Source: an uncultured Gammaproteobacteria bacterium (lineage in GTDB: Bacteria > Pseudomonadota > Gammaproteobacteria > SZUA-229). From it: DNA of 64,000 bases. Under the pieces are notes generated by a model. The model did not search any database, was not told the origin of the DNA, and worked only from the letters and a program-made list of their open reading frames with translations. This document shows positions 6,076 through 53,744 of the stretch, one piece after another (within the stretch, counting starts at the first letter, position 1; the number at the start of each line of letters is the position of its first letter). The translations under genes and the position numbers were made by a program. The stretch spans positions 2,258 to 66,257 of the forward strand of contig CAWECN010000013.1 of NCBI GenBank assembly GCA_963807625.1, written 5' to 3'.

Positions 6076-6579
6076 TTACTGTTTACTTTTTGCTTTTTGA
6101 ACAACTGCCAGGGAAATCTTTCCATAACCGGCACTGGTACAACTCGACATCACTTTTTTCATTAGATGGAATGGTACCGTTCGATGCGCCAGCACAGTCA
6201 CCTCGTTACTTTTTGCCACTGATTTAGTGCTGATGCCGATAACTTTTTTCTTCTGTAAAAGTAATCGCTGTTTTACCGGCTCGATAATAGCCGTTTTGCT
6301 ATCAATCACTTCCTGCGTGGTGATCACGGGCTCGCCCTGAACCAGTATCTGGTCCGGAGTAATCATGATAATAACTGTTTCACGCGGTTTAGCTTCAACC
6401 GTAGAGTCAGGTAATTTAATTCTTTTCGGTGGTTCCATGACATCGCTGGATGATGAATTCACCAACAGGAAAAATACCAGGATGGTAAATACATCCATCA
6501 ATGAGACCAGGTTTAAACCAGTAGCAGCTGAACCCTTGCTACTGCGCGACATGCGCTTGATGCGACGGCTTTGACTCAT
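6076..6579 (-). CDS. ExbD/TolR family biopolymer transport protein (AglS/AglQ-like)
   Basis: 167 aa. Single N-terminal TM helix (LNLVSLMDVFTILVFFLLV) plus a periplasmic domain typical of ExbD/TolR. Its ATGA start overlaps the stop of the upstream ExbD gene. Confidence 0.8.
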   Translation of the reverse strand: MSQSRRIKRMSRSSKGSAATGLNLVSLMDVFTILVFFLLVNSSSSDVMEPPKRIKLPDSTVEAKPRETVIIMITPDQILVQGEPVITTQEVIDSKTAIIEPVKQRLLLQKKKVIGISTKSVAKSNEVTVLAHRTVPFHLMKKVMSSCTSAGYGKISLAVVQKAKSKQ

Positions 6580-8127: not shown

Positions 8128-8207
8128 AATGTCATCACCTTGTGCAATTATTATCAGCCAAGAATACAAAAAACCATCACGTAAATATTTTTCTTAATGG
8201 TTATAAT

Positions 8208-8810: not shown

Positions 8811-8844
8811 ATTTCTACTACCTGTCATAGTCATGCCGTACATA

Positions 8845-29084: not shown

Positions 29085-30779
29085 ATGAAAGTTCAAGTAA
29101 GTGAATTAATTGTCAGATACATGGAACGCCTGGGCATCGACACCATCTTTGGCATGCCTGGTGCGCATATCCTGCCGGTTTATGACAAGCTGTATGATTC
29201 ATCGATTCAATCGGTACTGGCAAAACATGAACAGGGCGCGGCATTCATGGCCTGTGGTTACACCCGCGCTTCTGGAAACATCGGTGCCTGTATCACTACT
29301 GCCGGGCCCGGTGCGACGAACCTCGTTACCGGTATCGCCAATGCCTATGCAGACAAACAGGCGATCCTCCTCATTACCGGTGAAACCCCGACATACATTT
29401 TTGGTAAGGGCGGCCTGCAGGAGAGCTCCGGAGAAGGCGGTAGCATAAACCAGTGCGCCCTGTTTGACAGCATCACCCGGTACAGCCGCGTTATCGAGCG
29501 CACCGACTACCTGGAGAACGTGCTCAACCAGGCATCGAAGATCCTGCTATCCGATAATTCCGGACCGGTGTTACTCAGCCTGCCATTCAACGTTCAGAAA
29601 GAGATGGTCGATATCGATATACTCGAGAACATCATCACCAGCAGAAAAGCGCCTGCGTCCAGACCAGCTGAGGCACCATCCAGGATGCAGTCATCGCACC
29701 AGATCGAGCACTTCGTCGATCTGCTTCGTGACAGCAAACAGCCGGTCATCGTCTCCGGTTATGGCTGCATCCGATCGGGCGCACAGGCACAGGTCACCGA
29801 ACTCAGTCAGTCACTCAACATTCCAGTCACCTCAAGCCTTAAGGGTAAAGGTACGATCAATGAATGTTCAGAATTATCACTTGGCAGCCTGGGGGTCACC
29901 TCCAGTGGCTATGCCTATGACTACATCATCAACAAATCCGACCTGGTCATCGTGCTCGGTGCCAGCTTCAACGAACGCACTAGCTACCTGTGGAACGACA
30001 AACTACTCGGTGATAAAAACGTCGTTCAAGTCGATATCGACGATGACCAGTTAAATAAAGTGTACCAGGCCGACCTCACCATCCATGCCGATATCAAACA
30101 GACATTAAGTAATGTGATCGATAGACTGCAAGACGAGACCTTCGGTAAGAAACAACTGGAAAACATCAGCGAATACAAGAGCAATATCGAAGACAGGGCG
30201 ACAAGCAAAGGCAACTCTATCTTCCAGGCCGAGTTCTCGCTGGTAAAAGCTTTCTTCGAAAAGATGAACACGGTCTTCCCCGAAGGCATCTCAGTGTTTG
30301 ATGACAACATCATCTTCGCGCAGAACCTGCTGCAGGTCTCGACCAAGAACAACTTCTACCCCAACGCTGGCATCTCCTCGTTAGGCCATGCTATCCCCGC
30401 AGCTATCGGTGCGCAATTTTCTGAACGGACGACCATGTTTGCCATCATCGGTGATGGTGGTTTCCAGATGTGCTGCATGGAGATCATGACAGCGGTAAAT
30501 TACGAGATTCCACTTAACATCATCCTGTTCAACAACAGCAGCATGGGGCTGATAAGGAAGAACCAGATCCAGAGTTATGACAACCGTTTCATCGACTGCG
30601 ACTTCATCAACCCGGACTATGCCAAACTCGCACAGTCTTTTGGCATCAACCACATACTCATCGAATCAGAAAACAAGCTGGATACGCTGTTCGAAGAAAC
30701 AGACTTTGATAATGGCATCAATCTAATCGAAATAATTATCGATAAGAATGCGTTTCCAAATTATTCATCCAGACGTTAA
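29085..30779 (+). CDS. Thiamine-pyrophosphate enzyme of the acetolactate-synthase/POX family (large subunit-like)
   Basis: 564 aa. N-terminal TPP/pyrimidine-binding domain (FGMPGAHILPVYD, TTAGPGATNLVTGIANAY), and C-terminal TPP-binding motif GDGGFQM...NN. There is no adjacent small regulatory subunit. Confidence 0.8.
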   Translation: MKVQVSELIVRYMERLGIDTIFGMPGAHILPVYDKLYDSSIQSVLAKHEQGAAFMACGYTRASGNIGACITTAGPGATNLVTGIANAYADKQAILLITGETPTYIFGKGGLQESSGEGGSINQCALFDSITRYSRVIERTDYLENVLNQASKILLSDNSGPVLLSLPFNVQKEMVDIDILENIITSRKAPASRPAEAPSRMQSSHQIEHFVDLLRDSKQPVIVSGYGCIRSGAQAQVTELSQSLNIPVTSSLKGKGTINECSELSLGSLGVTSSGYAYDYIINKSDLVIVLGASFNERTSYLWNDKLLGDKNVVQVDIDDDQLNKVYQADLTIHADIKQTLSNVIDRLQDETFGKKQLENISEYKSNIEDRATSKGNSIFQAEFSLVKAFFEKMNTVFPEGISVFDDNIIFAQNLLQVSTKNNFYPNAGISSLGHAIPAAIGAQFSERTTMFAIIGDGGFQMCCMEIMTAVNYEIPLNIILFNNSSMGLIRKNQIQSYDNRFIDCDFINPDYAKLAQSFGINHILIESENKLDTLFEETDFDNGINLIEIIIDKNAFPNYSSRR

Positions 30780-30801
30780 CGCAACAGAAAAGTATTAAGC
30801 G

Positions 30802-32658
30802 ATGAACCCCGTTCTTGACACCTCACTACTACACCAGGGAAAACAGCTCAATGAGAGTTCAGCAGAGCTCGATAAATTACTAAAACAGTTGTCACGGTCT
30901 GCCGATGACAACGCCATCGACCGTGTCATCTCTCTCTACAAAGATGAGATAGTGAAACTGGAAAAGAACACCTGGAAACAGGCTCCCTCGAAAAAGGACA
31001 TCGAGCAATATCAAAATGCATTCAGCGTACTGGAAAAACTGCACGAATTGAAATCCATCGACACACGACATAGTTTCAAAATCGTCATCCCCGTTGCCGA
31101 CCGGCCGCAACACCTGAAACACTGCCTGGATAGCCTTCTTACACTCTGTGAGAGTTATAGCTATGGCGGTTTGAAAGATAGCCGATACCATAAGATATCC
31201 GCACTGGTCGCCGATGACTCCAAAGAACCCGGGAACATCGAGCAACACAAAGAGTACTGCAGAGCACTCAGTGACAAGGGAATAACCACCGATTACTTCG
31301 GCTTACAGGAACAGCTGGAACTGGCCCGTGCCACTTCTGCTGAACATGTTCATCTACAGAACATCATATCGGGTACCGACGAAGTAGATGATCCTGCCGA
31401 TTTTTCGCATAAGGGCGCATCGATCATGCGCAATATTACCTACCTAAAGATCGACCAGTTACTAAGCCTGGATAAAAAGCGAGATAACACGTTAATCTAT
31501 TTCATCGACAGTGACCAGGAGTTCTGCATCAACGCAACAAACTCCGAAAATAATTTTTACGCGATCAACTACTTCCACTACCTGGACGAGATCTTCAGCA
31601 CGAATGATGTCTCTGTTCTTACCGGAAAAGTCGTGGGTGACCCACCCGTCTCACCATCGGTAATGGCTGGTAATTTTCAACAGGACGTTTACAACTTCCT
31701 TAACGCCATCGATAAAACTGAGCCAGCAGAACCATGCCAGTTCCATCAGCATGAAGCTGATACTACCGATGATGCCGCTTATCATGATATGGCCAATCTT
31801 TTCGGCTTTTCACAACATGAACAGGCCTTCGATTACCACTGCACACTCCATGGCAAACACGACAACAGCGACTGCTTCAGCGACTTCGCCAACAAGCTTG
31901 GACACTTCTTCTATGGTGAGCACCCCACGCGAAAAACATTTTTTAATTATGGCGATGGCTTCTCGGCTGCGACTCCTGCACGAACTGTCTACACGGGTAA
32001 CTATGTCATAACAACAGAATGCCTGAACTATTTTATCCCCTTCGCCACACTGAAATTACGCATGGCTGGCCCGGTACTCGGCCGCATATTAAAAAGCCGT
32101 CTCCAGGATAAATTTGTTTCTGCAAACCTGCCTATGCTGCATAACCGCACGGTCGAATCCACCGGCAGGTCCGAGTTTCGTGCCGGGGTGATTAACACTA
32201 ACCAGTCTATCGATCTAAGCAATGAATTCATCCGCCAGTTCTATGGTGATGTCATGCTGTTCTCTATAAAGAATCTGACAGAACAGGATCAATTTGATGA
32301 AGAGCTTGATGCTGACACGGTACAGGCTGTTCTCGACAGCACCTATCGAGAGATAAGAGATAGCTATATCGAAAAACACGACACCGTATTACAACTCAGA
32401 TCGAAGATTGAAAACCAGCTAAACGACCAGGTTCACTGGTGGCATAAACCTTCAACGAAGGCAGATGAAACGACTCAGGCCGTCTCATACTTCGAAACGT
32501 TCCTGAGTAACATCCAGTCGAATTTTGCTGAAGACAGTTATGCATTCCAGCAGATCACTTCGACGACAAGTGCAAACAAACACCTGCAGGAAATCCTTCA
32601 TGCCATCCTGCAGTACGACAAAGACATGAAAAACTGGCAACAGGCACTCGGAGCGTAA
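30802..32658 (+). CDS. Hypothetical 618-aa protein with a GT-A-fold glycosyltransferase-like central domain
   Basis: GT2-like N-terminal strand and helix (FKIVIPVADRPQHLKHCLDSLL), a DD motif (ALVADDSKEP) and a DxD-like motif (IDSDQEF). This is flanked by an N-terminal coiled coil and an about 280-aa C-terminal region of unknown fold. There is no signal peptide or TM helix. Confidence 0.4.
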   Translation: MNPVLDTSLLHQGKQLNESSAELDKLLKQLSRSADDNAIDRVISLYKDEIVKLEKNTWKQAPSKKDIEQYQNAFSVLEKLHELKSIDTRHSFKIVIPVADRPQHLKHCLDSLLTLCESYSYGGLKDSRYHKISALVADDSKEPGNIEQHKEYCRALSDKGITTDYFGLQEQLELARATSAEHVHLQNIISGTDEVDDPADFSHKGASIMRNITYLKIDQLLSLDKKRDNTLIYFIDSDQEFCINATNSENNFYAINYFHYLDEIFSTNDVSVLTGKVVGDPPVSPSVMAGNFQQDVYNFLNAIDKTEPAEPCQFHQHEADTTDDAAYHDMANLFGFSQHEQAFDYHCTLHGKHDNSDCFSDFANKLGHFFYGEHPTRKTFFNYGDGFSAATPARTVYTGNYVITTECLNYFIPFATLKLRMAGPVLGRILKSRLQDKFVSANLPMLHNRTVESTGRSEFRAGVINTNQSIDLSNEFIRQFYGDVMLFSIKNLTEQDQFDEELDADTVQAVLDSTYREIRDSYIEKHDTVLQLRSKIENQLNDQVHWWHKPSTKADETTQAVSYFETFLSNIQSNFAEDSYAFQQITSTTSANKHLQEILHAILQYDKDMKNWQQALGA

Positions 32659-33189
32659 ATGAATGTCTTCGTCTTAAATACCGGTCGCTGCGGTTCCGCA
32701 ACTTTCATAAAAGCGTGCCAGCACATTAGCAACTACACATCATCACACGAATCATTACTCGACAGGACAGGTGATCAGCGGCTTGCTTACCCGAAAAACC
32801 ATATCGAGGCAGACAATCGCCTGAGCTGGTTCCTGGGACAACTCGATAAAAAATATGCAGACGATGCCATCTACGTCCACCTGAAACGGGAACGAGAGGC
32901 AGTCGCGGCAAGTTTTTCGAAACGTATCGACTTCGGAATTTTAAAGGCCTACGAACAGGGCATTCTAATGCATCAAGAACACCGCTACCCGGCATCTGAT
33001 ATCGCCCTCGACTATATCGATACGGTCAACGCCAATATAGCGTTATTCCTCAAGGACAAGACAAATAAGATAGATGTTTCTATCGAAACCGTGAACACTG
33101 ACTTCGTTGGTTTCTGGGAATTGATCGGTGCCGAAGGCAACCTGGAAGAAGCATTGAATGAATGGACGATCAACTATAACGCATCGTGA
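32659..33189 (+). CDS. Small P-loop sulfotransferase-like protein (176 aa), tentative
   Basis: N-terminal NTGRCGSATF resembles the 5'-PSB loop of sulfotransferases. Its start codon overlaps the upstream stop (TAAATG). Low confidence. Confidence 0.3.
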   Translation: MNVFVLNTGRCGSATFIKACQHISNYTSSHESLLDRTGDQRLAYPKNHIEADNRLSWFLGQLDKKYADDAIYVHLKREREAVAASFSKRIDFGILKAYEQGILMHQEHRYPASDIALDYIDTVNANIALFLKDKTNKIDVSIETVNTDFVGFWELIGAEGNLEEALNEWTINYNAS

Positions 33190-33206
33190 ACCTTGCAGTG
33201 ATTGGT

Positions 33207-33806
33207 TTACCTTCTCAGGATACTGCATCCACGTTCGTTATCAATAAATTCATAACTGAACTCGGGATGTATCTTTAACCAGATCTTTACCAGTTCCAGC
33301 TCATCATCACGCGCAGCATCATCAAGAAAAACAATGCAGTGCTCGGCCAGCCTGTCACTCAACATGGGTAATGCCGGGTAACGAGAATGTTTCTGTAAAA
33401 ACCCTGGTGGACCATCGATCACCAGCATATCAATCGTTTTTTCAGGAAGCCTGGTTATGTCGTACCATTGAAAACCCTTATCTTCCAGTACGATCTCCCG
33501 TAGTGGTGCATGGATGACATCGCAATATCCAGATAAAGAAAAATCACTTAACTGGCCCCTGGTCTTGTTGAGAAACTCTTCGCCATTCTCCAGGCTATAA
33601 ACATGACCCGACCGGTTTATCCGGCAACACTGAGATATCACCAGGCTACTGGTACCGCTACTGCATTCGACGATAACCTTCGGTTTATTCTCCAGGCAAT
33701 AATCACTGATCAGTTTTAGAAAATCGGGTGCGGCCGACCAGGTCTCTGTGACTGGCAATGTACGCTTAAAACCAAGAGATTTTTCCAGCAACTGATATGA
33801 CATCAT
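33207..33806 (-). CDS. Putative class I SAM-dependent methyltransferase (199 aa)
   Basis: Glycine-rich SAM-binding-like motif VIVECSSGTSSLV, and an acidic motif LVIDGPPG / FLDDAARDDE, as in small O-methyltransferases. Tentative. Confidence 0.4.
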   Translation of the reverse strand: MMSYQLLEKSLGFKRTLPVTETWSAAPDFLKLISDYCLENKPKVIVECSSGTSSLVISQCCRINRSGHVYSLENGEEFLNKTRGQLSDFSLSGYCDVIHAPLREIVLEDKGFQWYDITRLPEKTIDMLVIDGPPGFLQKHSRYPALPMLSDRLAEHCIVFLDDAARDDELELVKIWLKIHPEFSYEFIDNERGCSILRR

Positions 33807-37596: not shown

Positions 37597-38007
37597 TTAC
37601 TGCAGTGTTTGCCCATTTGACTGATTCTGCACCAGCGATGCATGATGCTCGACCATTAACCAGCCGCAATCAAACTTCCGGTATACATTCGTCGCCAGAA
37701 CAACCGCTGCGACCTGGCCTGAGTTGAGCATTTCCTCCGCCACGACATATACCGCCAGCTCATCTGATAGCACACGCCTGATTACTGTGATCTTCATTTC
37801 GGCACTATCGACATTACTGAATATGTTCGCCCAACTGCGGATAATCGCATCATATTCCACGATAACACCCGCCCCGGGATGCACGCAGACCACATCCTCG
37901 TCGGCCCATAAACCAGCCATCACATCCGGATCACAGCGCATGAACGATTCGTAGAAAACGGCCTCAGCTTCGTCAGGAGTCTTAAACTGTAGTTTTGATT
38001 TTTTCAT
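37597..38007 (-). CDS. NTF2-like / SnoaL-like (ketosteroid-isomerase fold) protein
   Basis: 136 aa with a pattern typical of the NTF2-like family (DPDVMAGLWADEDVVCVHPG...). Tentative. Confidence 0.45.
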   Translation of the reverse strand: MKKSKLQFKTPDEAEAVFYESFMRCDPDVMAGLWADEDVVCVHPGAGVIVEYDAIIRSWANIFSNVDSAEMKITVIRRVLSDELAVYVVAEEMLNSGQVAAVVLATNVYRKFDCGWLMVEHHASLVQNQSNGQTLQ

Positions 38008-38089
38008 TACCCGGTTTAGTGTTCAGCCGAAAGCAATCGTTCATAATCTTGCCGGTATCGACCATCAATTCCGTTAATAAAACAATAAG

Positions 38090-38419
38090 TCAAAAATCAA
38101 TTGGCAGGTAAAAGAAGATGAAACGTCCATCTTCGATATCGATTTTTAGAGTAGCTCCATGATAAAGCGCGTAATCGATATAACCGGGAATAGCGCTGTT
38201 AACGTGGCATTCACTGGCATGCTGCGGGGATTCGAAGTCACGATCCCGGTCATACCAGGCCAGTAACATGTTATCACCGACACGTCTTTCAGCTTCCTCG
38301 TTGGCAACCTGCATCGCCTGCAGGTAATCATCTAGCACAGGGTCGGGCGATAACTCGACGATGGTGACACCGGTGTAATCCGGTTCAAGTGGCATATTAC
38401 ATTTAGATTCGATAGTCAT
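38090..38419 (-). CDS. Hypothetical protein (109 aa)
   Basis: ORF only; no recognisable motif. Confidence 0.3.
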   Translation of the reverse strand: MTIESKCNMPLEPDYTGVTIVELSPDPVLDDYLQAMQVANEEAERRVGDNMLLAWYDRDRDFESPQHASECHVNSAIPGYIDYALYHGATLKIDIEDGRFIFFYLPIDF

Positions 38420-38654
38420 GGCTCGATTTAAGGTTCTACTAAGATCAGGGTTATTGATTGTAATGCATATTTATCGACAAAGTGGATAGCTCATAATTAC
38501 CCTTTAATAAGAATACATTAATAACCACCTGAATTATTATAAAAAAATTCTAAATGCTGACTTCATATTTAATGTGAGATATTATTCTGAATCAAGCTAA
38601 TCAGCGACAAGCTTCACCCAGCATCAAACTGTTAAATTCACTAATACAAGGAGT

Positions 38655-40454
38655 ATGAAGATGACCCAGAGAAACAGAAAGTTGAATGCTAATCCAGATG
38701 TACCCGATTTTCGTGACTACATCTACGAACCTGCTTTGATCCAACTGCAACAGACCATTGATCCACCGCAAGACCAGAAGATCCTCGACCAGTTCAGTGA
38801 GGGTGCATGCACCGGATTTTCTCTCGCAGCCTGTATCAACCATCTATATAAGAATGCAGACCAGAACACACAGGTCAGTGCACGCATGCTTTACGAGATG
38901 GCAAAACGAAGTGATGAGTGGCCCGGAGAAGATTACGATGGATCCAGCTTACGTGGTGCCATCCAGGGCTGGAAGAACATGGGCGTATGTAAAGATACCA
39001 TGTGGCAATATAAGACGACCAACCCTGGTGAGCTGACCATCGATCGTGCAAAAGATGCCCGCAACCACACCATCGGCGCCTATTACCGGATAAAACCTGA
39101 AATAACACATTTTCATGCCGCATTAAACGAAGTCGGCATCATCGCAGTATCAGCTTATGTTCATAGAGGCTGGAACAATCCGCGTGATGGAATCATCGAA
39201 TACCACGAAAAGAAAGATGGCGGGCATGCTTTCGCTGTCGTCGGTTATAACGATAAAGGCTTCTGGGTACAGAATTCATGGGGCAATACATGGGGCGAAA
39301 ATGGCCTGGCACTCTGGTCGTATGAAGACTGGAATGCAAACGTTATGGATGCATGGGTCTTTCTACTAGCACTGCCTACTCCACAATTGTTTGGTATGCG
39401 CCCTGCAGTTACAGAGAAGACTCCTGATGCTGGGAAAACCAGTAAACCGACCACAGACAGGAGCAAGATAGCTGGTCACTTCGTACACATCGACGACGGT
39501 CGTTATAAAGAAAGCGGACGTTACTGGAGCTGCGCAAGCGATACAGAACAGACGGCGAAACTTGTAGCCGAGAATGGCAAGTACAAACACCTGCTCATAT
39601 ATGCACATGGCGGCCTCAATTCACCTGCAGATTCCGCAAACCGGATTGCAGCGATGAAAGATGTTTTCAAAGCTAACAAGATCTATCCGTTACATATCAT
39701 GTACGACACCGGCGTGATGGAAGAATTAAAAGACCTGATCTGGCGAAAAGACTTAGAGGCAGAAGACAGAGTCGGTGGTTTTACCGACTGGACCGACCGT
39801 TTCCTTGAAGGCCTGCTGCGCAGACCCGGCACCATGTTATGGAATGAGATGAAACGCGATGCCAATGATGCATTCATGCAAAATGGTGCTGGTACCGATG
39901 CATTAAATCGTTTCCTTAGCCATTTCAAACGAACCGGCGCAAACATCAAGATACACATCGCAGGACACAGTACCGGCGCCATCGTGCTGGCACACCTGTT
40001 AAATGTAATGAAACGCAAAAAACTGACTTTCTCAAGTTGTTCACTGCTCGCACCGGCATGCTCTATCGATCTATATAAATCGAATTATTTCCCCATACTA
40101 CAGAACAAACATGCAGTGAAAATAAATGACATGGCTATTTATAATCTAAAAGACAAGCTGGAACTGGATGACGACGTAGCAAGCGCCTATCGTAAATCAC
40201 TGCTCTACCTGGTCTCTAATGCATTTGAGAACACAAAAGAGAAACCGATTCTAGGCATGGAGAAATTCAAGAACGATATCGTGTTCAGTAGAAAAAAACC
40301 GACCATGATCTATTCAAACGGAATAAATGGCACGACCCGTAGTACTAGTCATGGTGGTTTTGATAATGACACACATACGATGAATCATATCTTGAAGAGA
40401 ATATTGAAAGATAATCCAGCAAGAGCATTTACAGAAAAAGATTTGGACTTTTAG
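38655..40454 (+). CDS. Fusion protein: N-terminal papain-like (C1 family) cysteine peptidase domain plus C-terminal alpha/beta-hydrolase (esterase/lipase-like) domain; cytoplasmic by sequence
   Basis: C1 signatures: Cys in EGACTGFSLAAC, His in DGGHAFAVVGYND, and Asn/Trp in WVQNSWGNTWGENG. C-terminal half: oxyanion-hole-like IYAHGGLNS and nucleophile elbow IHIAGHSTGAIV (GxSxG). There is no signal peptide. It is preceded by a 235-bp AT-rich region. Confidence 0.6.
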   Translation: MKMTQRNRKLNANPDVPDFRDYIYEPALIQLQQTIDPPQDQKILDQFSEGACTGFSLAACINHLYKNADQNTQVSARMLYEMAKRSDEWPGEDYDGSSLRGAIQGWKNMGVCKDTMWQYKTTNPGELTIDRAKDARNHTIGAYYRIKPEITHFHAALNEVGIIAVSAYVHRGWNNPRDGIIEYHEKKDGGHAFAVVGYNDKGFWVQNSWGNTWGENGLALWSYEDWNANVMDAWVFLLALPTPQLFGMRPAVTEKTPDAGKTSKPTTDRSKIAGHFVHIDDGRYKESGRYWSCASDTEQTAKLVAENGKYKHLLIYAHGGLNSPADSANRIAAMKDVFKANKIYPLHIMYDTGVMEELKDLIWRKDLEAEDRVGGFTDWTDRFLEGLLRRPGTMLWNEMKRDANDAFMQNGAGTDALNRFLSHFKRTGANIKIHIAGHSTGAIVLAHLLNVMKRKKLTFSSCSLLAPACSIDLYKSNYFPILQNKHAVKINDMAIYNLKDKLELDDDVASAYRKSLLYLVSNAFENTKEKPILGMEKFKNDIVFSRKKPTMIYSNGINGTTRSTSHGGFDNDTHTMNHILKRILKDNPARAFTEKDLDF

Positions 40455-40473: not shown

Positions 40474-40522
40474 GGGGCCAGAGTAAAATACTTAACTGAA
40501 ATAGTTTTAACTCTGACCCCAA
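40474..40522. repeat. Imperfect inverted repeat (ggggccagagtaaaa ... ttttaactctgacccc); its right arm is copy 1 of a direct repeat
   Basis: Seen directly. The same 17-18 nt (ttttaactctgaccccaa) recurs at 43905-43922. It lies between convergent gene ends. Confidence 0.6.
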
Positions 40523-40591: not shown

Positions 40592-40951
40592 TTACTTATA
40601 TTTTTCACTCATGTTTTTGAATTGCTTCATAAGGTCATCGCAAGTCTTTTTAGGTGCTTCGCATTGACTAACAGTCCTGGTTTCCAGTTCACTCTTATCA
40701 CCGGTATAAATTATCTTCTTGAACATAGCGGGAGAAACGTTATCCACTTCCGGAGCCAGGAACCAGTAAACACGGTCTGTGTTTTCCATCTTGGAAACGA
40801 TCGTCCAGCCGTCCTCTTGAGTAATCTTTGCTGAAGAATCTTTTGCCAGCTCTTCAATCGAATGACCGGCACCCGTTTTACTATCTGTTCCATAACAGGC
40901 GGCCAGTAAAAAGAACAGAGCTAGCGTGATAATGAAATGTAAATTTCTCAT
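40592..40951 (-). CDS. Small lipoprotein (119 aa)
   Basis: Lipobox FFLLAACYG after MRNLHFIITLAL. Confidence 0.5.
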   Translation of the reverse strand: MRNLHFIITLALFFLLAACYGTDSKTGAGHSIEELAKDSSAKITQEDGWTIVSKMENTDRVYWFLAPEVDNVSPAMFKKIIYTGDKSELETRTVSQCEAPKKTCDDLMKQFKNMSEKYK

Positions 40952-41004: not shown

Positions 41005-43764
41005 TTAGAAAGAATTGCTCTCTGACCCGGTTTTTCTCCATTGCAAAAACAGCTTATGGATCTCGATGACGACGGTAACAGACAGCGCCAGTAACAGCAG
41101 ATCTATCCAGTGCTCCAGCGAAACAGGCTGGATGCCAAGCACATCCTTCAGCCATGGTGTATACATCGCGCCGATATGGATCAGCTGCGCGATGATCGTG
41201 CCAAACAGCAGGATGCGGTTACGCATTGGATTATGCCTGAATATTGACCGTGTTTCAGAACGGCAGTTGAACACATGCACATTTTCAAACAGCACCATCA
41301 GCAGCAGGGTGCCGTTTCGCGCCTCATCAACGGTGAACCCCCAGTCGAGCAAGGCCTTGAAAAGCATGAATGCAACGATACCGATCACCAGCGCAGAGCT
41401 GACCACGCGTTCTATCATGATGCGGTTGAAGATGGGTTCTTTGGGGGAGCGCGGTGGATGGGTCAGCTCATCGCCTTCTCCCGGTTCGAAGGCGAGTGCA
41501 ACATCCTGTATACCGTTAGTCACCAGGTTTAACCAGAGCAGCTGAACAGCCATCAGCGGCAACGGCAATCCGGTAAACAATGCCAGGGTAAACAACACCA
41601 GTTCAGCGGCACCGGTCGAAATGAGCAGAAAGATGACCTTGCGCACATTAGCATAGGAGATACGCCCTTCTTCGACACCGGAGACGATGGAATTAAAATT
41701 ATCATCGGTGATGATTATGTCAGCGGTTTCGCGCGCGACATCCGTTCCGCTCTTACCCATAGCAACGCCAACCTGTGCAGCCCTCAAGGCAGGCGCGTCA
41801 TTGGCGCCATCACCGCTGACAGCGACGAAATGCCCGTTACGCTGAAGCGAGCGAACGATATCGAGCTTCTGCGATGGTTCGACACGCGCAAACACATGCG
41901 CACGATGAGTCATCTCATCGATCTCACCCAGATCGGAAGCCGACCTCAATTCCGGACCGGTCACGATATGCTCCTCGCCATCAGCCATGCCCAGCCCCTG
42001 GGCGATGGCCAGCGCAGTCGCCGGGTGGTCACCGGTCACCATCGCCACTTCGATGCCCGCATCACGGCACCGTTGAACAGCCTCTTTCGCTTCCGGCCGC
42101 AACGGGTCGATCATACCCACGAGCCCGAGCATGGTAAGACCGCTCATGTGCTGCTCACAAAAAACATCGCTCTCCGGCGGTGCTTTATCACTGCTTGCAA
42201 CAGCGAGGACACGGTAGCCCTGGCGGGCGAGTTCATTGGCCTGCTTATCAAGCGCCGGAATATCGATAGCCACATCCCCGCCGAGGAACGCCATGGTGTC
42301 ACACATCGGCAATAACTTTTCGAACGCACCCTTGGCAAACACACAGCGCCGATCGCCCGCCTGGTTCAGGCTGGCCGAAAACAGGCGCTCAGATTCAAAA
42401 GGCAGGGTATCGAGTTCGGGGAAGGCGTTGACCGTCTGTGCTTTAACGATACCGGCCTTGTGCGCCATGACCAGCAATGAAACATCGACTGCATCACCAT
42501 GTTGTGTCCACTCGCCGTCATGCCGGCCAAGATAACCATCATTGGTGAGGATGGCAGCAAGGCAAAGCCGCTCCACTAATGCCGTTTCCGCCTCCGATGG
42601 CGAATCATGTGGCGGGATCACCTCACCGACAGGTGCCATACCTTCACCGGTAACATTCCATACATTACCATCCGGAAACTGGATTCGACGTGCCGTGAGC
42701 AGATTGACCGTCAGGGTGCCCGTCTTGTCCGTAGCTATGTAGGTACACGAACCCAGCGACTCCACTGCTACCAGGCGCCGGATGATGACATTGCGTTTTG
42801 CCATGCGCCGCATACCGATGGCAAGTGCGACCGTTAACGCTACCGGCAAACCCTCCGGAATGACAGACACGGCAAGGGCGACGGCAAGCATGAATATCTC
42901 AGCGAAAGGCATGCCGCGGGAAAGTGATATCGCCGCCATCAACAGCGCAGCGATGCCGACGATGATCGCGATCCTCCGCGTAAACCGCTCCATCCGTACC
43001 AGCAGTGGCGGCTTCGCGGATGCACCCTGAATAACCTCAGTAGCGATCGCACCCAGTTCTGTTTCCAATGCAGTTGCAACGACCACACCGCTGCCCCTGC
43101 CGCGGTTCACCATGGTGCCTGCGAACACCATGTTTTTACGGTCACCCAGAAAGGTATTCTCATCGAGCACATCATCGTCTTTCTTCAATACCGCCTGCGA
43201 CTCGCCCGTGAGCAGTGATTCATCGATCTCGAGATCATGGCTGGACAGTAAACGGATATCTGCAGGCACCTTCTCGCCAGACTCCAGCAGCAGGATATCG
43301 CCCGGCACCAGCTGTTCCGCATCGATCTCACAGGTATCACCATCACGCAACACCCGGCTTTGTGTCGATACCAGCTGTTGCAATGCAGTCGCCGCACGCT
43401 GCGCCGAAAACTCCTGCATCGTTCCGATGATCGCATTGATCATCAGCACGCCCGTGATGAATCCCGCATCAGACCATTCCTCGATAACCAGCGCAAAGAT
43501 TGCCGCAGCCACCAGCACGTAGATCAACGGACTGACGAACTGGCACAGAAAAATCATGAATAAAGAAGGCGGTTCCGCACGCGGCAGGCTGTTAGGCCCG
43601 TACTGTTCCAGCCTGGACTGCGCTTCCTGTGAAGAGATACCTTGCCGCGTAGTACGCAACCGCGCAACGATATCGTCGCCATGAATCGCATGCGGAAATT
43701 CGGGCAACGATGGAAGCAGTGAATCTTGCAGCTGGTGATTTACCTTGGTTTCAGAACGGCTCAT
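41005..43764 (-). CDS. P-type cation-transporting ATPase (type II, Ca2+/Mg2+-like)
   Basis: 919 aa. Phosphorylation motif DKTGTLT, TGD motif, hinge GDGANDAPAL, and about 10 TM helices. It has a cation-ATPase N-terminal domain. Confidence 0.9.
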   Translation of the reverse strand: MSRSETKVNHQLQDSLLPSLPEFPHAIHGDDIVARLRTTRQGISSQEAQSRLEQYGPNSLPRAEPPSLFMIFLCQFVSPLIYVLVAAAIFALVIEEWSDAGFITGVLMINAIIGTMQEFSAQRAATALQQLVSTQSRVLRDGDTCEIDAEQLVPGDILLLESGEKVPADIRLLSSHDLEIDESLLTGESQAVLKKDDDVLDENTFLGDRKNMVFAGTMVNRGRGSGVVVATALETELGAIATEVIQGASAKPPLLVRMERFTRRIAIIVGIAALLMAAISLSRGMPFAEIFMLAVALAVSVIPEGLPVALTVALAIGMRRMAKRNVIIRRLVAVESLGSCTYIATDKTGTLTVNLLTARRIQFPDGNVWNVTGEGMAPVGEVIPPHDSPSEAETALVERLCLAAILTNDGYLGRHDGEWTQHGDAVDVSLLVMAHKAGIVKAQTVNAFPELDTLPFESERLFSASLNQAGDRRCVFAKGAFEKLLPMCDTMAFLGGDVAIDIPALDKQANELARQGYRVLAVASSDKAPPESDVFCEQHMSGLTMLGLVGMIDPLRPEAKEAVQRCRDAGIEVAMVTGDHPATALAIAQGLGMADGEEHIVTGPELRSASDLGEIDEMTHRAHVFARVEPSQKLDIVRSLQRNGHFVAVSGDGANDAPALRAAQVGVAMGKSGTDVARETADIIITDDNFNSIVSGVEEGRISYANVRKVIFLLISTGAAELVLFTLALFTGLPLPLMAVQLLWLNLVTNGIQDVALAFEPGEGDELTHPPRSPKEPIFNRIMIERVVSSALVIGIVAFMLFKALLDWGFTVDEARNGTLLLMVLFENVHVFNCRSETRSIFRHNPMRNRILLFGTIIAQLIHIGAMYTPWLKDVLGIQPVSLEHWIDLLLLALSVTVVIEIHKLFLQWRKTGSESNSF

Positions 43765-43902
43765 GTAGAAACTACACTCTCAGGGGTAGACTAATGCGAG
43801 TATTCTACCGGACGATCTACTCCTGATACATACGTTTTACTAATTGTTGCGAAATTAGAAACAGATAAAAGGACAGAGAGAAAGCTCACACATATCGACT
43901 CG

Positions 43903-43923
43903 AGTTTTTACTCTGACCCCAAG
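43903..43923. repeat. Copy 2 of the 18-bp direct repeat (tttttactctgaccccaa)
   Basis: Near-identical to 40505-40522. Together the two copies bracket the lipoprotein gene and the P-type ATPase gene. Confidence 0.6.
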
Positions 43924-43929
43924 TATTCA

Positions 43930-50548: not shown

Positions 50549-51768
50549 TCGATTGTTCTTAAGCCCAGCTCATCCTGGGCCATATCATCTGGAAATCGGT
50601 CAAGTAATAAACACAGCCGTTACTTCTGGCAACGGCTCGGATTTAGTTATTCAAAACTGCCTAAAGAAGTGCCTATGGTTTCATTGCGCATCTGTCGGCG
50701 AAGTGAATACCTTGCTACCGCTTTTAAAAAATCTACATTCAAAAAATAATCAATTAAAATTCATTATCACAACAAACACCATTACTGGCAGTAAAATTGT
50801 CAAACAGACAGAAACTAAATTACCTGTTTCACAGCTACCTTCCATTTGACTGGCGCTTTAGCGTTAACCGTTTTCTCACCATAACAAACCCTGCTGCACT
50901 CTATGTTTTAGAAACTGAAATATGGCCGAATCTGTTTAACCTGTGCTTTAACAAAGGCGTCGCCATACACATCATCAATGCGCGCTTGTCCAGCAAAACC
51001 ACCTCTGCAAAACCCTGGTTAAAAGCCCTGCTTAAAACTGCCCTGTCGAAAGTTGACACTATTTCTGCCCGCTCTGAACAAGAAGCTTTTGCATATGAGT
51101 TACTCGGTGCCGATAAAAACAAAATATCAACTGTCGGCAACTTAAAACTCACCACCGCTCTGAGCAAGCATCAATTTACGGAGGATAGTAATTTTTCAAT
51201 AGCCCGGGGTTATGTCCTTGTTGCCTCCACCCATGATGATGAAGAATGTCAGATTTATACTATCTGGAAAAAATTAAACCGGGAAGAGCTTCTTATTATT
51301 GTGCCAAGACACCCTGAACGAGCAGCATCTATCGCCAAAAAACTCAACTGCGATAACCTGTCCATAAGAAGTAAAAAACAGCCCATAACAGATAAAACTA
51401 AAGTATTTTTACTCGACACAGTAGGTGAGTTAAACAACTATTTTAAAAATGCAAAACTTGTCATTATGGGTGGTTCGTTTACACCAATAGGCGGACACAA
51501 TATTTTAGAACCTGCCAGTTATAATAATGCGGTCATCACCGGGCCTTACATGGAAAACTTTAAAGAAGAACTGGAATTGATGATTGACAAAAATGCGATT
51601 ATTCAAGTTAGTTCTTTTGATACCTTAGGTCGAGAATTAACAAAGTTGCTGGATAATAAAAATCACAGAACAACATTACAAAAACATACGAAAGAATTAA
51701 CACATAACGCAGAAGTAATACTCGATAGCTATACCACGCTGATACTTAATCATTTAAGCCAACGTTAA
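50527..51768 (+). pseudogene. waaA: Kdo transferase (waaA/kdtA) interrupted by at least two, probably three, +1 frameshifts in its first 300 nt
   Basis: WaaA-like segments occur in three successive frames. Frame 2: ...RYFWQRLGFSYSKLPKEVPMV, which I align to E. coli RKRWGERYGFYRHPLKPGGIML. Frame 0: WFHCASVGEVNTLLPLLKNL...TTNTITGSKIVKQTETKL. Frame 1 (50797-51768): NYLFHSYLPFD...VLETEIWPNLF... through the C-terminus. The switches occur at the ttt run near 50655-50665 and the aaa run near 50805-50815. A possible short first frame (ATG 50527, MFFYRLLID) overlaps the lpxL-like stop. Confidence 0.6.
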
Positions 51769-51978
51769 TACTTGTTATTCTAGACTAAGCTGACGGTTAA
51801 CCAGTCGAGCTCATATTTGACACGCCGACTCAGATAAAACTCCATGCAAAACACCACAATCTGACGTCCGTGATTGTGGCTGGCAGGGAAAAAATGCGGC
51901 CCAAAAACGGACAATTAGAATCTATTAAATCCCAACCCCTTCGTTACTTTCGATTGCGGACTTGTACACATATATGTG

Positions 51979-52716
51979 TTATATACCCAGACGCCGTAAT
52001 AAACGATTTAATTCTTTTTTAAGGCGTTTAGTGAGGCTTATTTTAGGAAATTTGTAATCTGGGAAGAGCTGTATCCCTGTATGTAAATGAACAGGTTCCT
52101 CCATAGTTCGCTTTTCAATAACCAGAACGCTATCATAATAATGTAATGAGTGAACCGATTTGGTAAACTCATTCACACTTAAGCGGCTTGTTTTTGAATG
52201 CCATGCATTTATGTAGTCAATAAATCGTTTACTATATTCAATATATGAATCACTCTTTTTATAGCCCCCGCCAAATCCATACCAGTATGAAGTGTGTAAA
52301 TCTTCACAAAGATAGACACCATTTTCCTCGACTTTGTAGAACAGCTCCTCAAAAGTGTTAATTTGTTGCTTCATAGTGTGACCGCCATCATCAATTAAAA
52401 TATCAATGCGTGGTATTTTTCCGGCTAGCGATTTTAAAAATGTTCGATCTTCCTGGTCACCTATAAAAATTTGAACTTGATCATCTGCAAACTGACTGCA
52501 ATCTGGATTAATATCGACGCCGTATATTTTACAATCTGGACCAAAATAGTCCTTCCACATTAGTAGAGAACCACCTTGTGATACACCAAACTCAACAATG
52601 TGAACATCAGTACCCCTGTAGTGCGAAAAATGTCGATCATAAATTTCAAAATAATGTTGCCATTTGTCAATCAGTCGCCCTGTATTGTTTGTGAAAAATT
52701 TTTCTAAATCATTCAT
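51979..52716 (-). CDS. Class I SAM-dependent O-methyltransferase-like protein (CmcI/TylF-like), probably LPS or glycan modification
   Basis: Motif VEFGVSQGGSLLMW, an acidic DxGxH region (ILIDDGGH), and its location within the LPS core cluster. Confidence 0.55.
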   Translation of the reverse strand: MNDLEKFFTNNTGRLIDKWQHYFEIYDRHFSHYRGTDVHIVEFGVSQGGSLLMWKDYFGPDCKIYGVDINPDCSQFADDQVQIFIGDQEDRTFLKSLAGKIPRIDILIDDGGHTMKQQINTFEELFYKVEENGVYLCEDLHTSYWYGFGGGYKKSDSYIEYSKRFIDYINAWHSKTSRLSVNEFTKSVHSLHYYDSVLVIEKRTMEEPVHLHTGIQLFPDYKFPKISLTKRLKKELNRLLRRLGI

Positions 52717-52955
52717 AACTGGATACTCAGTTCTAATTGCTTTATTGAATCATTATACAAATACACTGGATTAAGAGTATTGTCGAGTGCCCAAAGTGGG
52801 GCGACGCCCCCAATTTTGCCATAATTAATAAGCATCCGTTATGGTTAATCCATATCTATTAATATAGGTAGAAATAAATATTTGAAATGGCCGATTAGGT
52901 TTGAACTACTAGCGTTTATTGCTTTTGCTGAAAACTGCCTACTGCCTACTTAAAA

Positions 52956-53717
52956 CTATCTTTTCACATACCCATCTAAAAAAGCAGACCAATCGTCTTC
53001 ATCGAAGTTAAAACCATCTGTGTTTTTTTTAAACTTTAACAATGATCGCTTCAAACGCGAAATATTATCCATCTTCCAGGAATCTGGACCTATCCGGATA
53101 TTACTATTATCAAAATCTATCAGGTAAATTTTCATGCTTTCAGTAAGCAGAATATTTCTGGCATTTAAGTCAGCATGATACACATTATTTTGATGAAATA
53201 ATTTGATGCATGCGCCGATTTTTTTCCATTGTTCAACATCAATGCTGCTTTCACTTAAAACATCAGCAAGCGTTTTTGTATTTTTAATTTCCTCAGTTAT
53301 TAAATCTGCCCTATACGACACTAATGCTTTTTCAACGTGCGCAGCCACCGCTTGCGGTACGGGCAGACCAAACTCGTTCATTTTTTTTAATAAATGAAAC
53401 TCTCTAAATGAACGTGACTTTATAATGCTGAAACCAAGGTAACGGTCTTTTAAAATTGATGCCACTGCACCGCCTCGATAATAGTGTTTCAGTACGAATG
53501 ATTTTTCACCTTGCGAGAAATAGACGACCCGGGCTCTTCCTATTCCACCCTGCTGCCCGACCGGTGTGTGAGATTCCGATTTATTTTGCTGATAACACTG
53601 ATTAGTGTGATAATCGCGATTAAATAACTGCAATGTCGGTTCAGCTATAATGCTGGCATCATATAGAATATATGAATTACCTGTTTTACTGATTTTTAAA
53701 TTTTTATCCAATGACAT
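52956..53717 (-). CDS. kdkA: 3-deoxy-D-manno-octulosonic acid (Kdo) kinase
   Basis: Kinase catalytic loop YHADLNARNILL and DFD motif (LIDFDNS). Length 253 aa. It lies next to waaA and heptosyltransferase genes. Confidence 0.8.
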   Translation of the reverse strand: MSLDKNLKISKTGNSYILYDASIIAEPTLQLFNRDYHTNQCYQQNKSESHTPVGQQGGIGRARVVYFSQGEKSFVLKHYYRGGAVASILKDRYLGFSIIKSRSFREFHLLKKMNEFGLPVPQAVAAHVEKALVSYRADLITEEIKNTKTLADVLSESSIDVEQWKKIGACIKLFHQNNVYHADLNARNILLTESMKIYLIDFDNSNIRIGPDSWKMDNISRLKRSLLKFKKNTDGFNFDEDDWSAFLDGYVKR

Positions 53718-53744
53718 TTAAAAGTTTAATCCAACGATGATTTA

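What the first reader, a model, noticed from the sequence alone, without database searches (positions are those of the whole stretch)
38655..40454. Unusual cytoplasmic fusion of a papain-like C1 cysteine peptidase with an alpha/beta-hydrolase (GHSTG lipase/esterase-like) domain
The N-terminal 240 aa carry the full papain catalytic set: the Cys in a CTGF context, the GGHA His, and the NSWG Asn/Trp. The C-terminal about 330 aa carry an HGG-type oxyanion loop and a GxSxG nucleophile elbow. There is no secretion signal. The gene sits in an AT-rich patch with small hypothetical genes, and the adjacent segment is flanked by direct repeats. This suggests horizontally acquired accessory DNA. A protease-esterase two-headed enzyme of this type is not a standard housekeeping protein. 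It could be a toxin or effector, a defence-related protein, or an enzyme that deacylates and cleaves a lipopeptide substrate.
Basis: seen in the sequence. Interest (0 to 1): 0.55.

Follow-up and report, generated by a model that had tools for sequence, protein, structure and literature searches.

The report
Two-headed protease–lipase-like hydrolase gene
This gene encodes a real, signal-less enzyme that joins a papain-type cysteine protease to a divergent lipase-like serine hydrolase; the same fusion occurs in hundreds of bacterial species, nobody has characterised it, and its relatives repeatedly travel with cell-wall-degrading enzymes, which points to a role in breaking down bacterial envelopes.

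Summary
The N-terminal half is a genuine xylellain-type C1A peptidase (Q46/C52/H191/N207). The C-terminal half is a deeply divergent lipase-like alpha/beta-hydrolase (HGG318-320, S439, D506, H566). It has no close solved relative and passes no Pfam threshold.

The fusion is not unusual. At least 570 species genomes across many phyla encode it, and 108 of 114 diverse members keep both catalytic sets.

It is a stand-alone gene with no conserved neighbour, no adjacent immunity-like gene and no defence-model hit.

The local "acquired island" reading fails. Composition is normal, and the 83%-identical relative is syntenic. The "direct repeats" are copies of a dispersed 25-nt palindromic element.

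The functional lead is a recurring link to leaderless peptidoglycan hydrolases. Relatives are fused to Amidase_2, muramidase, GH19, Tlde1 or PG-binding heads. Others have GH108 or amidase genes adjacent, and two loci sit beside tail sheath/tube genes. These links come from sister subfamilies, not the window's own.

Best guess (about 0.45): an envelope-directed lytic or toxic effector. It is an uncharacterised variant built from known enzyme kinds, of moderate interest.

The parts
38655..40454 (+). ORF of the two-headed hydrolase (599 aa from ATG 38655; the probable true start is ATG 38661, giving 597 aa)
   Evidence: a 100% identical protein is in public data (P0001)
38648..38653 (+). Shine-Dalgarno AAGGAG, 7 nt upstream of ATG 38661
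   Evidence: read directly from the sequence
38685..39374 (+). Xylellain-type C1A (papain family) cysteine peptidase domain, residues about 11-240. Catalytic codons: Q46 (38790-38792), C52 (38808-38810), H191 (39225-39227), N207 (39273-39275)
   Evidence: Pfam PF00112 53 bits; phmmer to 3OIS 9.6e-18 with catalytic residues aligned; Foldseek 3ois E=3e-19, TMt 0.78; invariance
39375..39458 (+). Variable, low-confidence interdomain linker (residues about 241-268)
   Evidence: variable columns in A1; pLDDT below 50 for residues 252-262
39459..40451 (+). Divergent lipase-like alpha/beta-hydrolase domain (residues about 269-599). HGG318-320 (39606-39614), nucleophile S439 in GHSTG (39969-39971), acid D506 (40170-40172), H566 in SHGGFDND (40350-40352). 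A helical insertion spans residues about 355-427
   Evidence: sub-threshold Pfam hits at the elbow; model pLDDT 83, pTM 0.85, with canonical strand-elbow-helix order; Foldseek top hits are lipases/cutinases/esterases, E 2e-3, and viral lipase-class proteins; profile against PDB aligns the elbow to cinnamoyl esterases, E 0.05; invariance
38420..38654 (.). AT-rich (GC 0.31) divergent intergenic spacer shared with the DUF5619 gene. It holds a weak sigma70-like site at 38557-38585
   Evidence: promoter-like sites are no more frequent than in shuffles
40474..40522 (.). Hairpin made of an inverted pair of the dispersed palindromic element. It lies between the convergent target and lipoprotein genes and is a probable terminator (the T-run is on the minus strand)
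   Evidence: dG -17.5 kcal/mol, z = -3.46

Best explanation
SHOWN. The gene encodes a leaderless protein of about 597 aa made of two active-looking hydrolase domains. The first is an N-terminal xylellain-type C1A cysteine peptidase (Q46/C52/H191/N207). It has no I29 propeptide. The second is a C-terminal, highly divergent lipase-like alpha/beta-hydrolase (HGG oxyanion loop, S439/D506/H566). The protein belongs to a large, uncharacterised, horizontally spread family in which both catalytic sets are retained together. The gene stands alone with its own spacer and terminator.

INFERRED. The protein is an envelope-directed lytic or toxic effector. The serine-hydrolase head attacks membrane (phospho)lipid or a lipid-anchored envelope component. 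The cysteine-peptidase head cleaves envelope proteins or peptide links. It acts alongside leaderless peptidoglycan hydrolases, which in relatives are fused to it or encoded next to it. Having no signal peptide, it would reach its target by one of two routes. It could act from inside the producer, as programmed lysis that releases tail-like particles or aborts an infection. Or it could be exported by a signal-independent route such as a contractile injection system, T6SS or cell lysis. Which route applies is unknown.
For: Domains and catalytic residues.

Joint selection on both active sites: 108 of 114 diverse representatives keep C52+H191 and S439+D506+H566. Q46, H191, D506 and H566 are invariant.

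Family size and spread: at least 570 species genomes over many phyla at 50% identity or more; 710 cluster representatives at E<1e-30.

Envelope theme:
- Of 29 long relatives scanned, 8 carry N-terminal peptidoglycan-acting heads: Amidase_2 x4, Muramidase PF11860, GH19, PG_binding_1 and the T6SS-effector domain Tlde1. Others carry TIR, subtilase or phospholipase-C-type heads.
- All these heads are leaderless.
- A GH108+PG_binding_3 gene lies immediately downstream on the same strand in 6 of 80 loci, scattered through a 42-member subfamily.
- R. etli has a leaderless amidase gene 80 bp upstream on the same strand. S. fredii has a PG-binding-domain neighbour.
- Tail sheath genes, and in one locus a tube gene, lie directly downstream in 2 loci.

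Closest structural class of the C-terminal domain: lipases and phospholipase-like proteins. Cinquedea, a secreted bactericidal phospholipase A1 whose homologs are mostly DUF900-annotated, is the only characterised protein I found linked to DUF900 (bioRxiv 10.64898/2026.06.10.730825).
Against: - The peptidoglycan-hydrolase links come from a sister subfamily and more distant relatives. None was seen in the window's own subfamily or in the window itself.
- There is no conserved neighbour at all: 131 Pfam families among 146 immediate neighbours.
- Exported or lipoprotein ORFs, which could be immunity proteins, are not enriched next to the gene: 19.9% against 17.8%, p=0.56.
- No secretion-system genes were found among the window ORFs scanned.
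- Cross-phylum sequence conservation is very high, which is atypical for arms-race toxins.
- Many loci are housekeeping contexts.
- No PADLOC hit.
- No enzymatic or toxicity data exist.
Confidence: 0.45

Rival explanations
1. Cytoplasmic housekeeping or metabolic bifunctional hydrolase. The two heads jointly degrade an intracellular acylated peptide, lipoprotein or polymer. One version is peptidoglycan or lipoprotein recycling alongside AmpD-like cytoplasmic amidases. Another is turnover of storage-granule proteins and esters. No cell killing is involved.
For: - No signal peptide or TM segment.
- No immunity-like neighbour.
- Very strong sequence conservation.
- Housekeeping neighbourhoods in Thiolapillus, Sedimenticolaceae, Eleftheria and Ideonella.
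- Lineage synteny of the locus.
- Normal composition.
- Amidase_2, the commonest fused head, includes cytoplasmic AmpD-type recycling amidases (established knowledge).
Against: - Patchy, cross-phylum distribution, with 50-60% identity between phyla, indicates horizontal spread of an accessory gene.
- The other fused or adjacent partners (muramidase PF11860, GH19, GH108+PG_binding_3, PG_binding_1, Tlde1, TIR, phospholipase-C type, subtilase) act on polymeric wall or are toxin heads, not recycling enzymes.
- Tail sheath/tube neighbours in 2 loci.
Confidence: 0.25
2. Single-gene anti-phage immune protein. The C1+hydrolase module senses an infection cue. It then either kills the cell itself or, in fused relatives, switches on an N-terminal effector such as TIR.
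For: - A TIR_2-fused relative (P0131) has the C1 nucleophile changed Cys to Ser and has lost the HGG loop, as expected if the module can act as a sensor.
- Conflict-type neighbours occur in some loci: SLATT_1/DUF4231 (L030); TIR and a SAM-cyclase-AAA_16-TPR protein (L075).
- HicB, PIN, PhdYeFM and Fic genes lie near the Nitrospira copy. A Zeta-toxin-domain gene lies a few genes upstream in two close relatives.
- Caspase-family, trypsin-like and YEATS-associated-helix proteins lie next to the R. leguminosarum copy.
- The gene stands alone and has spread horizontally.
Against: - No PADLOC model matches.
- Most neighbourhoods are not defence islands.
- 95% of family members keep both active sites, so the module is normally an enzyme, not a sensor.
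- High conservation is unusual for immune sensors.
- The dominant fusion partners are peptidoglycan hydrolases rather than classic Abi effectors.
Confidence: 0.15
3. Recently acquired island cargo. The gene is foreign DNA inserted here, marked by AT-richness and flanking direct repeats.
For: - 1-kb GC dips at 38-39 kb and 40-41 kb.
- A 20-nt direct repeat at 40503 and 43903.
- Small genes of unknown function lie nearby.
Against: - The gene's GC, GC3 and codon usage are within about 1 SD of the window's large ORFs.
- The 83%-identical relative carries the gene in the same DUF455, U32, membrane protein ... P-type ATPase order.
- The repeats flank the ATPase segment, not the gene, and belong to a dispersed palindromic element present in at least 120 metagenome contigs.
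- No tRNA, integrase or transposase was seen nearby.
Confidence: 0.05

Closest known systems
Xylellain (Xylella fastidiosa; PDB 3OIS) and the 'short bacterial, xylellain-type' C1A peptidases
   Same: - Best sequence match (E 9.6e-18) and best structure match (E 3e-19, TMt 0.78, 26-28% identity).
- The Gln/Cys/His/Asn set is aligned.
- There is no I29 propeptide.
- The conserved N-terminal 'PDvpDxRD..Y.P' segment is shared.
- The type is known to move horizontally and into phages (PMC10380794).
   Different: - Xylellain is a single-domain protein of about 290 aa. Here the peptidase is permanently fused to a 330-aa serine hydrolase.
- Xylellain's longer N-terminal segment, which as I recall from the 2013 FEBS Lett paper blocks the active site, is mostly absent here.
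DUF900 (PF05990) / DUF676 / PGAP1-like lipase-type alpha/beta-hydrolases, including cinquedea (a secreted bactericidal archaeal phospholipase A1) and the T6SS/eCIS PGAP1-like phospholipase effectors (TplE/Tle4, EAT17)
   Same: - GHSxG nucleophile elbow and Ser-Asp-His order.
- The best Pfam, PDB and viral-structure neighbours are of this lipase class.
- Some homologs pass the DUF900 threshold.
- Leaderless like the T6SS/eCIS effectors (PMC11297309).
   Different: - This protein scores below every Pfam cutoff.
- TM-scores to solved structures are 0.41 or lower.
- It has an HGGLN oxyanion motif, a long helical insertion and a distinctive invariant SHGGFDND histidine motif.
- Cinquedea has a signal peptide and a single domain.
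- No T6SS/eCIS genes or immunity gene were found next to the window's copy.
Multi-domain leaderless lysins (phage endolysins; mycobacteriophage LysA peptidoglycan hydrolase plus LysB cutinase-like esterase)
   Same: Relatives combine peptidoglycan amidase, muramidase or PG-binding modules with a cysteine peptidase and an esterase/lipase-type head in one protein or one operon, all without signal peptides. This resembles a LysA+LysB toolkit.
   Different: - Not phage-borne. IMG/VR and GenBank phages carry only the stand-alone C1 domain.
- The peptidase is C1A rather than CHAP or NlpC/P60.
- Similarity to Lysin B is negligible (rank 43).
- The window's protein has no peptidoglycan hydrolase head or neighbour.

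Membership tests
Peptidase family C1A (papain family), xylellain-type short bacterial group | Match to the Pfam Peptidase_C1 model above the gathering threshold | tested here: met
   53.1 bits against a cutoff of 20.7, residues 42-219
Peptidase family C1A (papain family), xylellain-type short bacterial group | Catalytic Gln (oxyanion), Cys, His and Asn aligned with those of solved C1 peptidases | tested here: met
   Q46, C52, H191 and N207 align to 3OIS and mexicain. They are invariant in 31 homologs and kept in 110-114 of 114 diverse members
Peptidase family C1A (papain family), xylellain-type short bacterial group | Papain two-lobe fold | tested here: met
   Foldseek of the AF2 model: 3ois E 3e-19, TMt 0.78; cathepsins and papain at about 1e-10
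Peptidase family C1A (papain family), xylellain-type short bacterial group | Short form: no I29 propeptide and no signal peptide | tested here: met
   Only about 45 residues precede the catalytic Gln and no I29 hit was found. The group is described in PMC10380794
Peptidase family C1A (papain family), xylellain-type short bacterial group | Thiol-dependent peptidase activity (E-64 sensitive) | not testable with these tools
   Needs an enzyme assay
Alpha/beta-hydrolase fold, lipase-like branch (DUF900/DUF676/PGAP1-like) | Match to a curated family model above threshold | tested here: not met
   DUF900 18.1 against 20.5; Hydrolase_4 19.2 against 27; DUF676 11.5 against 20.3. No NCBIfam hit. Some homologs do pass (P0265 DUF900 22.3; precomputed PF05990/PF12146 hits)
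Alpha/beta-hydrolase fold, lipase-like branch (DUF900/DUF676/PGAP1-like) | G-x-S-x-G nucleophile elbow between a strand and a helix | tested here: met
   GHSTG437-441 follows strand 432-438 and precedes helix 441-452 in the model. It aligns to the elbow of cinnamoyl esterases. S439 is kept in 112 of 114 members
Alpha/beta-hydrolase fold, lipase-like branch (DUF900/DUF676/PGAP1-like) | Oxyanion loop, then Ser, then acid, then His, in canonical order and conserved | tested here: met
   HGG318-320 after a strand; S439; D506 after strand 493-498; H566 after strand 550-554. D506 and H566 are invariant in 114 of 114
Alpha/beta-hydrolase fold, lipase-like branch (DUF900/DUF676/PGAP1-like) | Overall fold similarity to solved alpha/beta-hydrolases | tested here: inconclusive
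   Top PDB hits are lipase, cutinases and feruloyl esterases, but with E of 2e-3 or weaker and TM 0.27-0.41. Viral lipase-class hits have E about 4e-4 and TM about 0.3. Profile against PDB gives E 0.05
Alpha/beta-hydrolase fold, lipase-like branch (DUF900/DUF676/PGAP1-like) | Triad residues within hydrogen-bonding geometry in 3D | not testable with these tools
   Model coordinates are not exposed
T6SS / eCIS-delivered lipase or peptidoglycan-targeting effectors | Genetic linkage to injection-machinery genes or marker domains (VgrG/PAAR/Hcp, sheath/tube, DUF4157) | tested here: not met
   None among the window ORFs scanned. Only 2 of 80 homolog loci lie next to sheath or tube genes. One relative carries a Tlde1 domain
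T6SS / eCIS-delivered lipase or peptidoglycan-targeting effectors | Adjacent cognate immunity gene (usually an exported or lipoprotein product) | tested here: not met
   No enrichment of exported ORFs next to the gene (19.9% against 17.8%, p=0.56; lipoproteins p=0.10) and no conserved neighbour. The window does have a convergent lipoprotein gene at 40592-40951
Known anti-phage defence systems (PADLOC-DB v2) | Match to any defence-protein model | tested here: not met
   0 families at E<=1
Phage endolysin / LysB-type lysis enzymes | Encoded in phage genomes or lysis cassettes | tested here: not met
   No full-length fusion in IMG/VR or GenBank phages, only stand-alone C1 domains at 24-36% identity

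The most novel reading that the evidence does not exclude
The family is a self-contained, holin-independent envelope-demolition module. From the cytoplasmic side, the lipase head breaches the inner membrane and the cysteine peptidase cuts envelope tethers. This gives leaderless peptidoglycan hydrolases, whether fused or co-encoded, access to the wall. It would be a previously unrecognised route to programmed bacterial lysis, used to release tail-like particles, to abort infection or to kill after injection. It would be spread by horizontal transfer through sediment and rhizosphere bacteria.
Probability: 0.15. Interest if true: 0.75.

Novelty: new variant of a known kind. Interest (0 to 1): 0.5.

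Why it matters
Both catalytic folds are textbook, but this fixed pairing has no curated family model, no solved structure for its C-terminal half, and no description in any paper I could find. Yet it is present in at least 570 bacterial species, including cultured rhizobia, Thiolapillus and Marinicella. If the envelope-lytic reading is right, it adds a widespread signal-less protease-lipase effector to the known repertoire of bacterial lysis and antagonism enzymes. It would also explain a recurrent set of leaderless peptidoglycan-hydrolase fusions. If the housekeeping reading is right, it marks an unknown cytoplasmic pathway for acylated peptides. Either way it is cheaply testable with Cys/Ser point mutants in cultured hosts.

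Tried and rejected
- NCBIfam and PADLOC scans of the protein gave no hits.
- An exact-sequence contig look-up for the window's own protein found nothing on record.
- The conserved-neighbour search over 80 genome loci found no universal partner. The maximum was 6 of 80 loci, and 146 immediate neighbours fell into 131 Pfam families.
- The immunity-gene hypothesis failed: there is no enrichment of exported or lipoprotein ORFs next to the gene.
- The phage-origin hypothesis failed: phages carry only the C1 domain.
- Large phage proteins (940-1736 aa) with a C-terminal C1 domain had no other Pfam domain, so they say nothing about substrate.
- The nearby DUF900-like proteins in the Nitrospira locus share only the HGGLN and GHSxG blocks (E 1e-5) or nothing at all.
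- A C-terminal profile against PDB sequences gave only marginal hits.
- The full-length Foldseek search was dominated by the papain half and said nothing about the C-terminal half.
- The island/HGT reading of the locus is rejected on composition, synteny and the nature of the repeats.
- The six GH108-linked genes do not form one exclusive clade, so whether the pairing arose once or several times is unresolved.
- Literature searches for the fusion, for RefSeq accessions and for DUF900 found no description of this family.
- Promoter-like sites were no more frequent than in shuffled sequence.
- PDB sequence searches with the DUF5619 and DUF1353 neighbours found nothing useful.
- The source organism was not identified, and I judged it not worth a capped database search.
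Full report
**1. Observation**

The ORF at 38655..40454 (+) exists and translates to 599 aa. An AAGGAG box at 38648-38653 lies 1 nt from the first ATG but 7 nt from the ATG at 38661. The closest homologs begin at the residue that matches M3. The real product is therefore probably 597 aa starting at 38661.

The N-terminus is hydrophilic, with no signal peptide or membrane segment.

**2. N-terminal half**

- Pfam Peptidase_C1 scores 53.1 bits against a cutoff of 20.7.
- The best solved relative is xylellain from Xylella fastidiosa (3OIS, E 9.6e-18), with the catalytic Gln, Cys, His and Asn aligned.
- An AlphaFold2 model built on a 31-sequence alignment (pLDDT 81.4, pTM 0.72) matches 3OIS at Foldseek E 3e-19 and TMt 0.78. 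Cathepsins, papain and falcipains follow.
- There is no I29 propeptide.

This is the 'short bacterial, xylellain-type' C1A group described in PMC10380794, which also notes its transfer into phages. My scans agree. IMG/VR and GenBank phages carry this domain alone, at 24-36% identity, and it matches phrog_16701.

**3. C-terminal half**

Only sub-threshold Pfam hits cluster on the nucleophile elbow: Hydrolase_4, DUF900, LIDHydrolase and DUF676.

A separate model of residues 263-599 has pLDDT 83.2 and pTM 0.85. It shows the canonical alpha/beta-hydrolase order:
- a strand followed by HGG;
- a strand, then the GHSTG elbow, then a helix;
- a strand followed by D506;
- a strand followed by H566.

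A long helical insertion spans about residues 355-427.

Similarity to known structures is weak but consistent:
- Foldseek against PDB finds only weak matches (best E 2e-3, TM 0.41 or lower). Nearly all are lipases, cutinases and feruloyl esterases.
- Against predicted viral structures, the best matches are a phage DUF676 protein, the aviadenovirus ORF19 proteins, a herpesvirus phospholipase-like protein, and PGAP1-like and fungal-lipase-like proteins.
- A profile of 19 diverse C-terminal domains aligns the elbow and the next strand to cinnamoyl esterases at E 0.05.

The domain is therefore an alpha/beta-hydrolase of the lipase class. It is far from anything solved or curated.

**4. Family**

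The fusion is common.
- The word-indexed search returned more than 120 full-length proteins of about 600 aa at 57-89% identity. They come from Gammaproteobacteria, Nitrospirales, Desulfobulbaceae and Thiolapillus, and are annotated at most 'C1 family peptidase' or 'alpha/beta hydrolase'.
- The exhaustive search of 50%-identity representatives gave 710 hits at E<1e-30, most covering both domains.
These include Gamma-, Beta- and Alphaproteobacteria, Desulfobacterota, Campylobacterota (Sulfurovum), Nitrospirota, Nitrospinota, Planctomycetota, Verrucomicrobiota, Bacteroidota, Zixibacteria, Krumholzibacteriota and one Bathyarchaeota MAG. All are at 50% identity or more.
- Fourteen full-length relatives (28-41% identity; the six best 37-41%) lie on plasmids or chromids, mostly of cultured rhizobia, plus Ideonella, Eleftheria and Palleronia.

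Such identity across phyla implies both strong constraint and horizontal spread.

Among 114 diverse members, 108 retain both C52+H191 and S439+D506+H566. Q46, H191, D506 and H566 are invariant, and D505 is variable. Both heads are therefore enzymes under joint selection.

**5. Locus**

The gene is flanked as follows:
- Upstream, a 235-bp AT-rich spacer is shared with a divergent DUF5619 gene.
- Downstream, a hairpin (z = -3.46) is shared with a convergent 119-aa lipoprotein gene.

The gene's GC (0.457), GC3 and codon usage are within about 1 SD of the window's large ORFs.

The 83%-identical relative L164 has the same order: DUF455, U32 peptidase, a membrane protein of about 230 aa, a variable slot, the target, then the P-type ATPase. 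The two 80%-identical relatives sit in a different but mutually syntenic context.

The 20-nt direct repeats (40503 and 43903) flank the lipoprotein and ATPase genes. They are copies of a 25-nt dispersed palindromic element, gAGTTTTTACTCTGACCCCAAaTaT. This element occurs in at least 120 metagenome contigs, often as inverted pairs 22-172 nt apart.

The 'recently acquired island' reading of this locus is therefore not supported. No tRNA, integrase or secretion machinery was found nearby.

**6. Context across the family**

No neighbour is conserved. The commonest occurs in 6 of 80 loci, and 146 immediate neighbours fall into 131 Pfam families. Exported or lipoprotein ORFs are not enriched next to the gene. 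Sampled annotated neighbourhoods range from plain housekeeping to patches with toxin-antitoxin, Fic, SLATT, TIR, CHAT or caspase-like genes.

**7. The functional lead**

Relatives that carry extra domains put them at the N-terminus of the same C1+hydrolase core. Of 29 long relatives scanned, the heads found were:
- Amidase_2 (four proteins);
- Muramidase PF11860, GH19, PG_binding_1 and the T6SS-effector domain Tlde1;
- TIR_2, subtilase S8, a phospholipase-C-type phosphoesterase, an ALO/FAD oxidase and DUF7379.

All these heads are leaderless. The shorter N-terminal extensions seen in other relatives are K/R/A/S-rich and disordered.

Gene neighbours point the same way:
- A leaderless GH108+PG_binding_3 gene lies immediately downstream on the same strand in six loci. 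These are scattered through a 42-member sister subfamily.
- In R. etli a leaderless Amidase_2/PG-binding gene lies 80 bp upstream on the same strand.
- In S. fredii a PG-binding-domain protein is the divergent neighbour.
- In two loci a contractile-tail sheath gene follows directly, with a gp19-type tube gene in one of them.

Cinquedea, whose homologs are mostly annotated as DUF900, is a secreted bactericidal phospholipase A1. PGAP1-like phospholipases serve as T6SS and eCIS effectors.

**8. Interpretation**

What is shown: a conserved, leaderless, stand-alone enzyme with two active sites.

What is inferred, with confidence about 0.45: it is an envelope-directed lytic or toxic effector. Its lipase-like head attacks membrane or lipid-anchored components. 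Its peptidase head cuts envelope proteins or peptide links. It works together with leaderless peptidoglycan hydrolases.

How it reaches its target is unknown. It could act from inside the producer cell, or it could be exported by a signal-independent route.

The main caveat is that every peptidoglycan link comes from sister or distant subfamilies. None comes from the window's own subfamily or from the window itself.

Rivals:
- a cytoplasmic housekeeping hydrolase for acylated peptides or wall recycling (0.25);
- a single-gene immune protein (0.15);
- recently acquired island cargo (0.05).

**9. Novelty**

Both folds are known. The fixed pairing is uncharacterised, lacks a curated model, and does not appear in the literature I could search. 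I rate it a new variant of a known kind, with interest 0.5. Several cultured carriers make it directly testable.

Noticed in passing
window 40474-40522 and 43901-43925; L070 2386-2410; metagenome loci L177-L256: A 25-nt element, gAGTTTTTACTCTGACCCCAAaTaT, occurs as an inverted pair forming the hairpin after the target gene. It occurs again as a single copy upstream of the P-type ATPase gene, and once about 290 bp downstream of a 51%-identical homolog in L070. It looks like a REP/MITE-like dispersed palindrome of unknown function.
   Followed up: partly
window 38655 vs 38661: The annotated-style start (ATG 38655) is probably wrong. The Shine-Dalgarno spacing and the homolog N-termini favour ATG 38661, giving 597 aa.
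   Followed up: yes
window 41005-43764 (-): The P-type cation ATPase gene has clearly higher GC (0.557, GC3 0.63) than its surroundings and is bracketed by the palindromic element copies. It is nevertheless syntenic in the 83% relative L164.
   Followed up: partly
window 37597-38419 vs L164 8653-9735: The slot between the 233-aa membrane protein and the target is variable. The window has SnoaL-like and DUF5619 genes on the minus strand. The close relative has a glucose/sorbosone-dehydrogenase-like gene on the plus strand.
   Followed up: partly
window 29085-33806: About 4.7 kb appears to be absent from the syntenic relative L164, judging from gene order only. It holds a TPP-dependent enzyme, two ORFs with no Pfam hit (618 and 176 aa) and a Methyltransf_24 gene.
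   Followed up: partly
window 51000-54000: This is the most AT-rich stretch of the window (GC 0.35-0.39). It carries a Methyltransf_24 gene and a Kdo/WaaP-family LPS kinase gene, so it may be a variable LPS-core region.
   Followed up: no
phage loci L098, L110, L127, L142, L146, L152, L158 (IMG/VR): Very large phage proteins (940-1736 aa) end in a xylellain-type C1 peptidase domain and have no other recognisable Pfam domain. Their role is unknown. They could be virion-associated or self-processing proteins.
   Followed up: partly
P0131 (808 aa, 50%-cluster representative): This TIR_2-fused relative has the C1 nucleophile changed from Cys to Ser and the HGG loop changed to DDG, but keeps the GHSTG serine. 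The module may have been repurposed as a sensor.
   Followed up: partly
L075 988-4311, 10161-12010, 15636-16664: Around a betaproteobacterial homolog lie a SAM, adenylate/guanylate cyclase, AAA_16 and TPR protein, then a tail sheath and gp19 tube gene pair, then a TIR_2 protein. This is a conflict-system-rich patch.
   Followed up: partly
L174 (R. leguminosarum pRle248d) 1192-6323: Caspase-family, YEATS-associated-helix and trypsin-like protease genes lie divergently upstream of the homolog. This is a typical set for uncharacterised NTP-dependent conflict systems.
   Followed up: no
L001 (Nitrospira sp. M1) 2580-4328 and 8150-9514: Two further lipase-like proteins flank the Nitrospira homolog among HicB, PIN, PhdYeFM and Fic genes. 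One is 582 aa and shares the HGGLN and GHSxG blocks. The other is a 454-aa lipoprotein with a GHSFG motif.
   Followed up: partly
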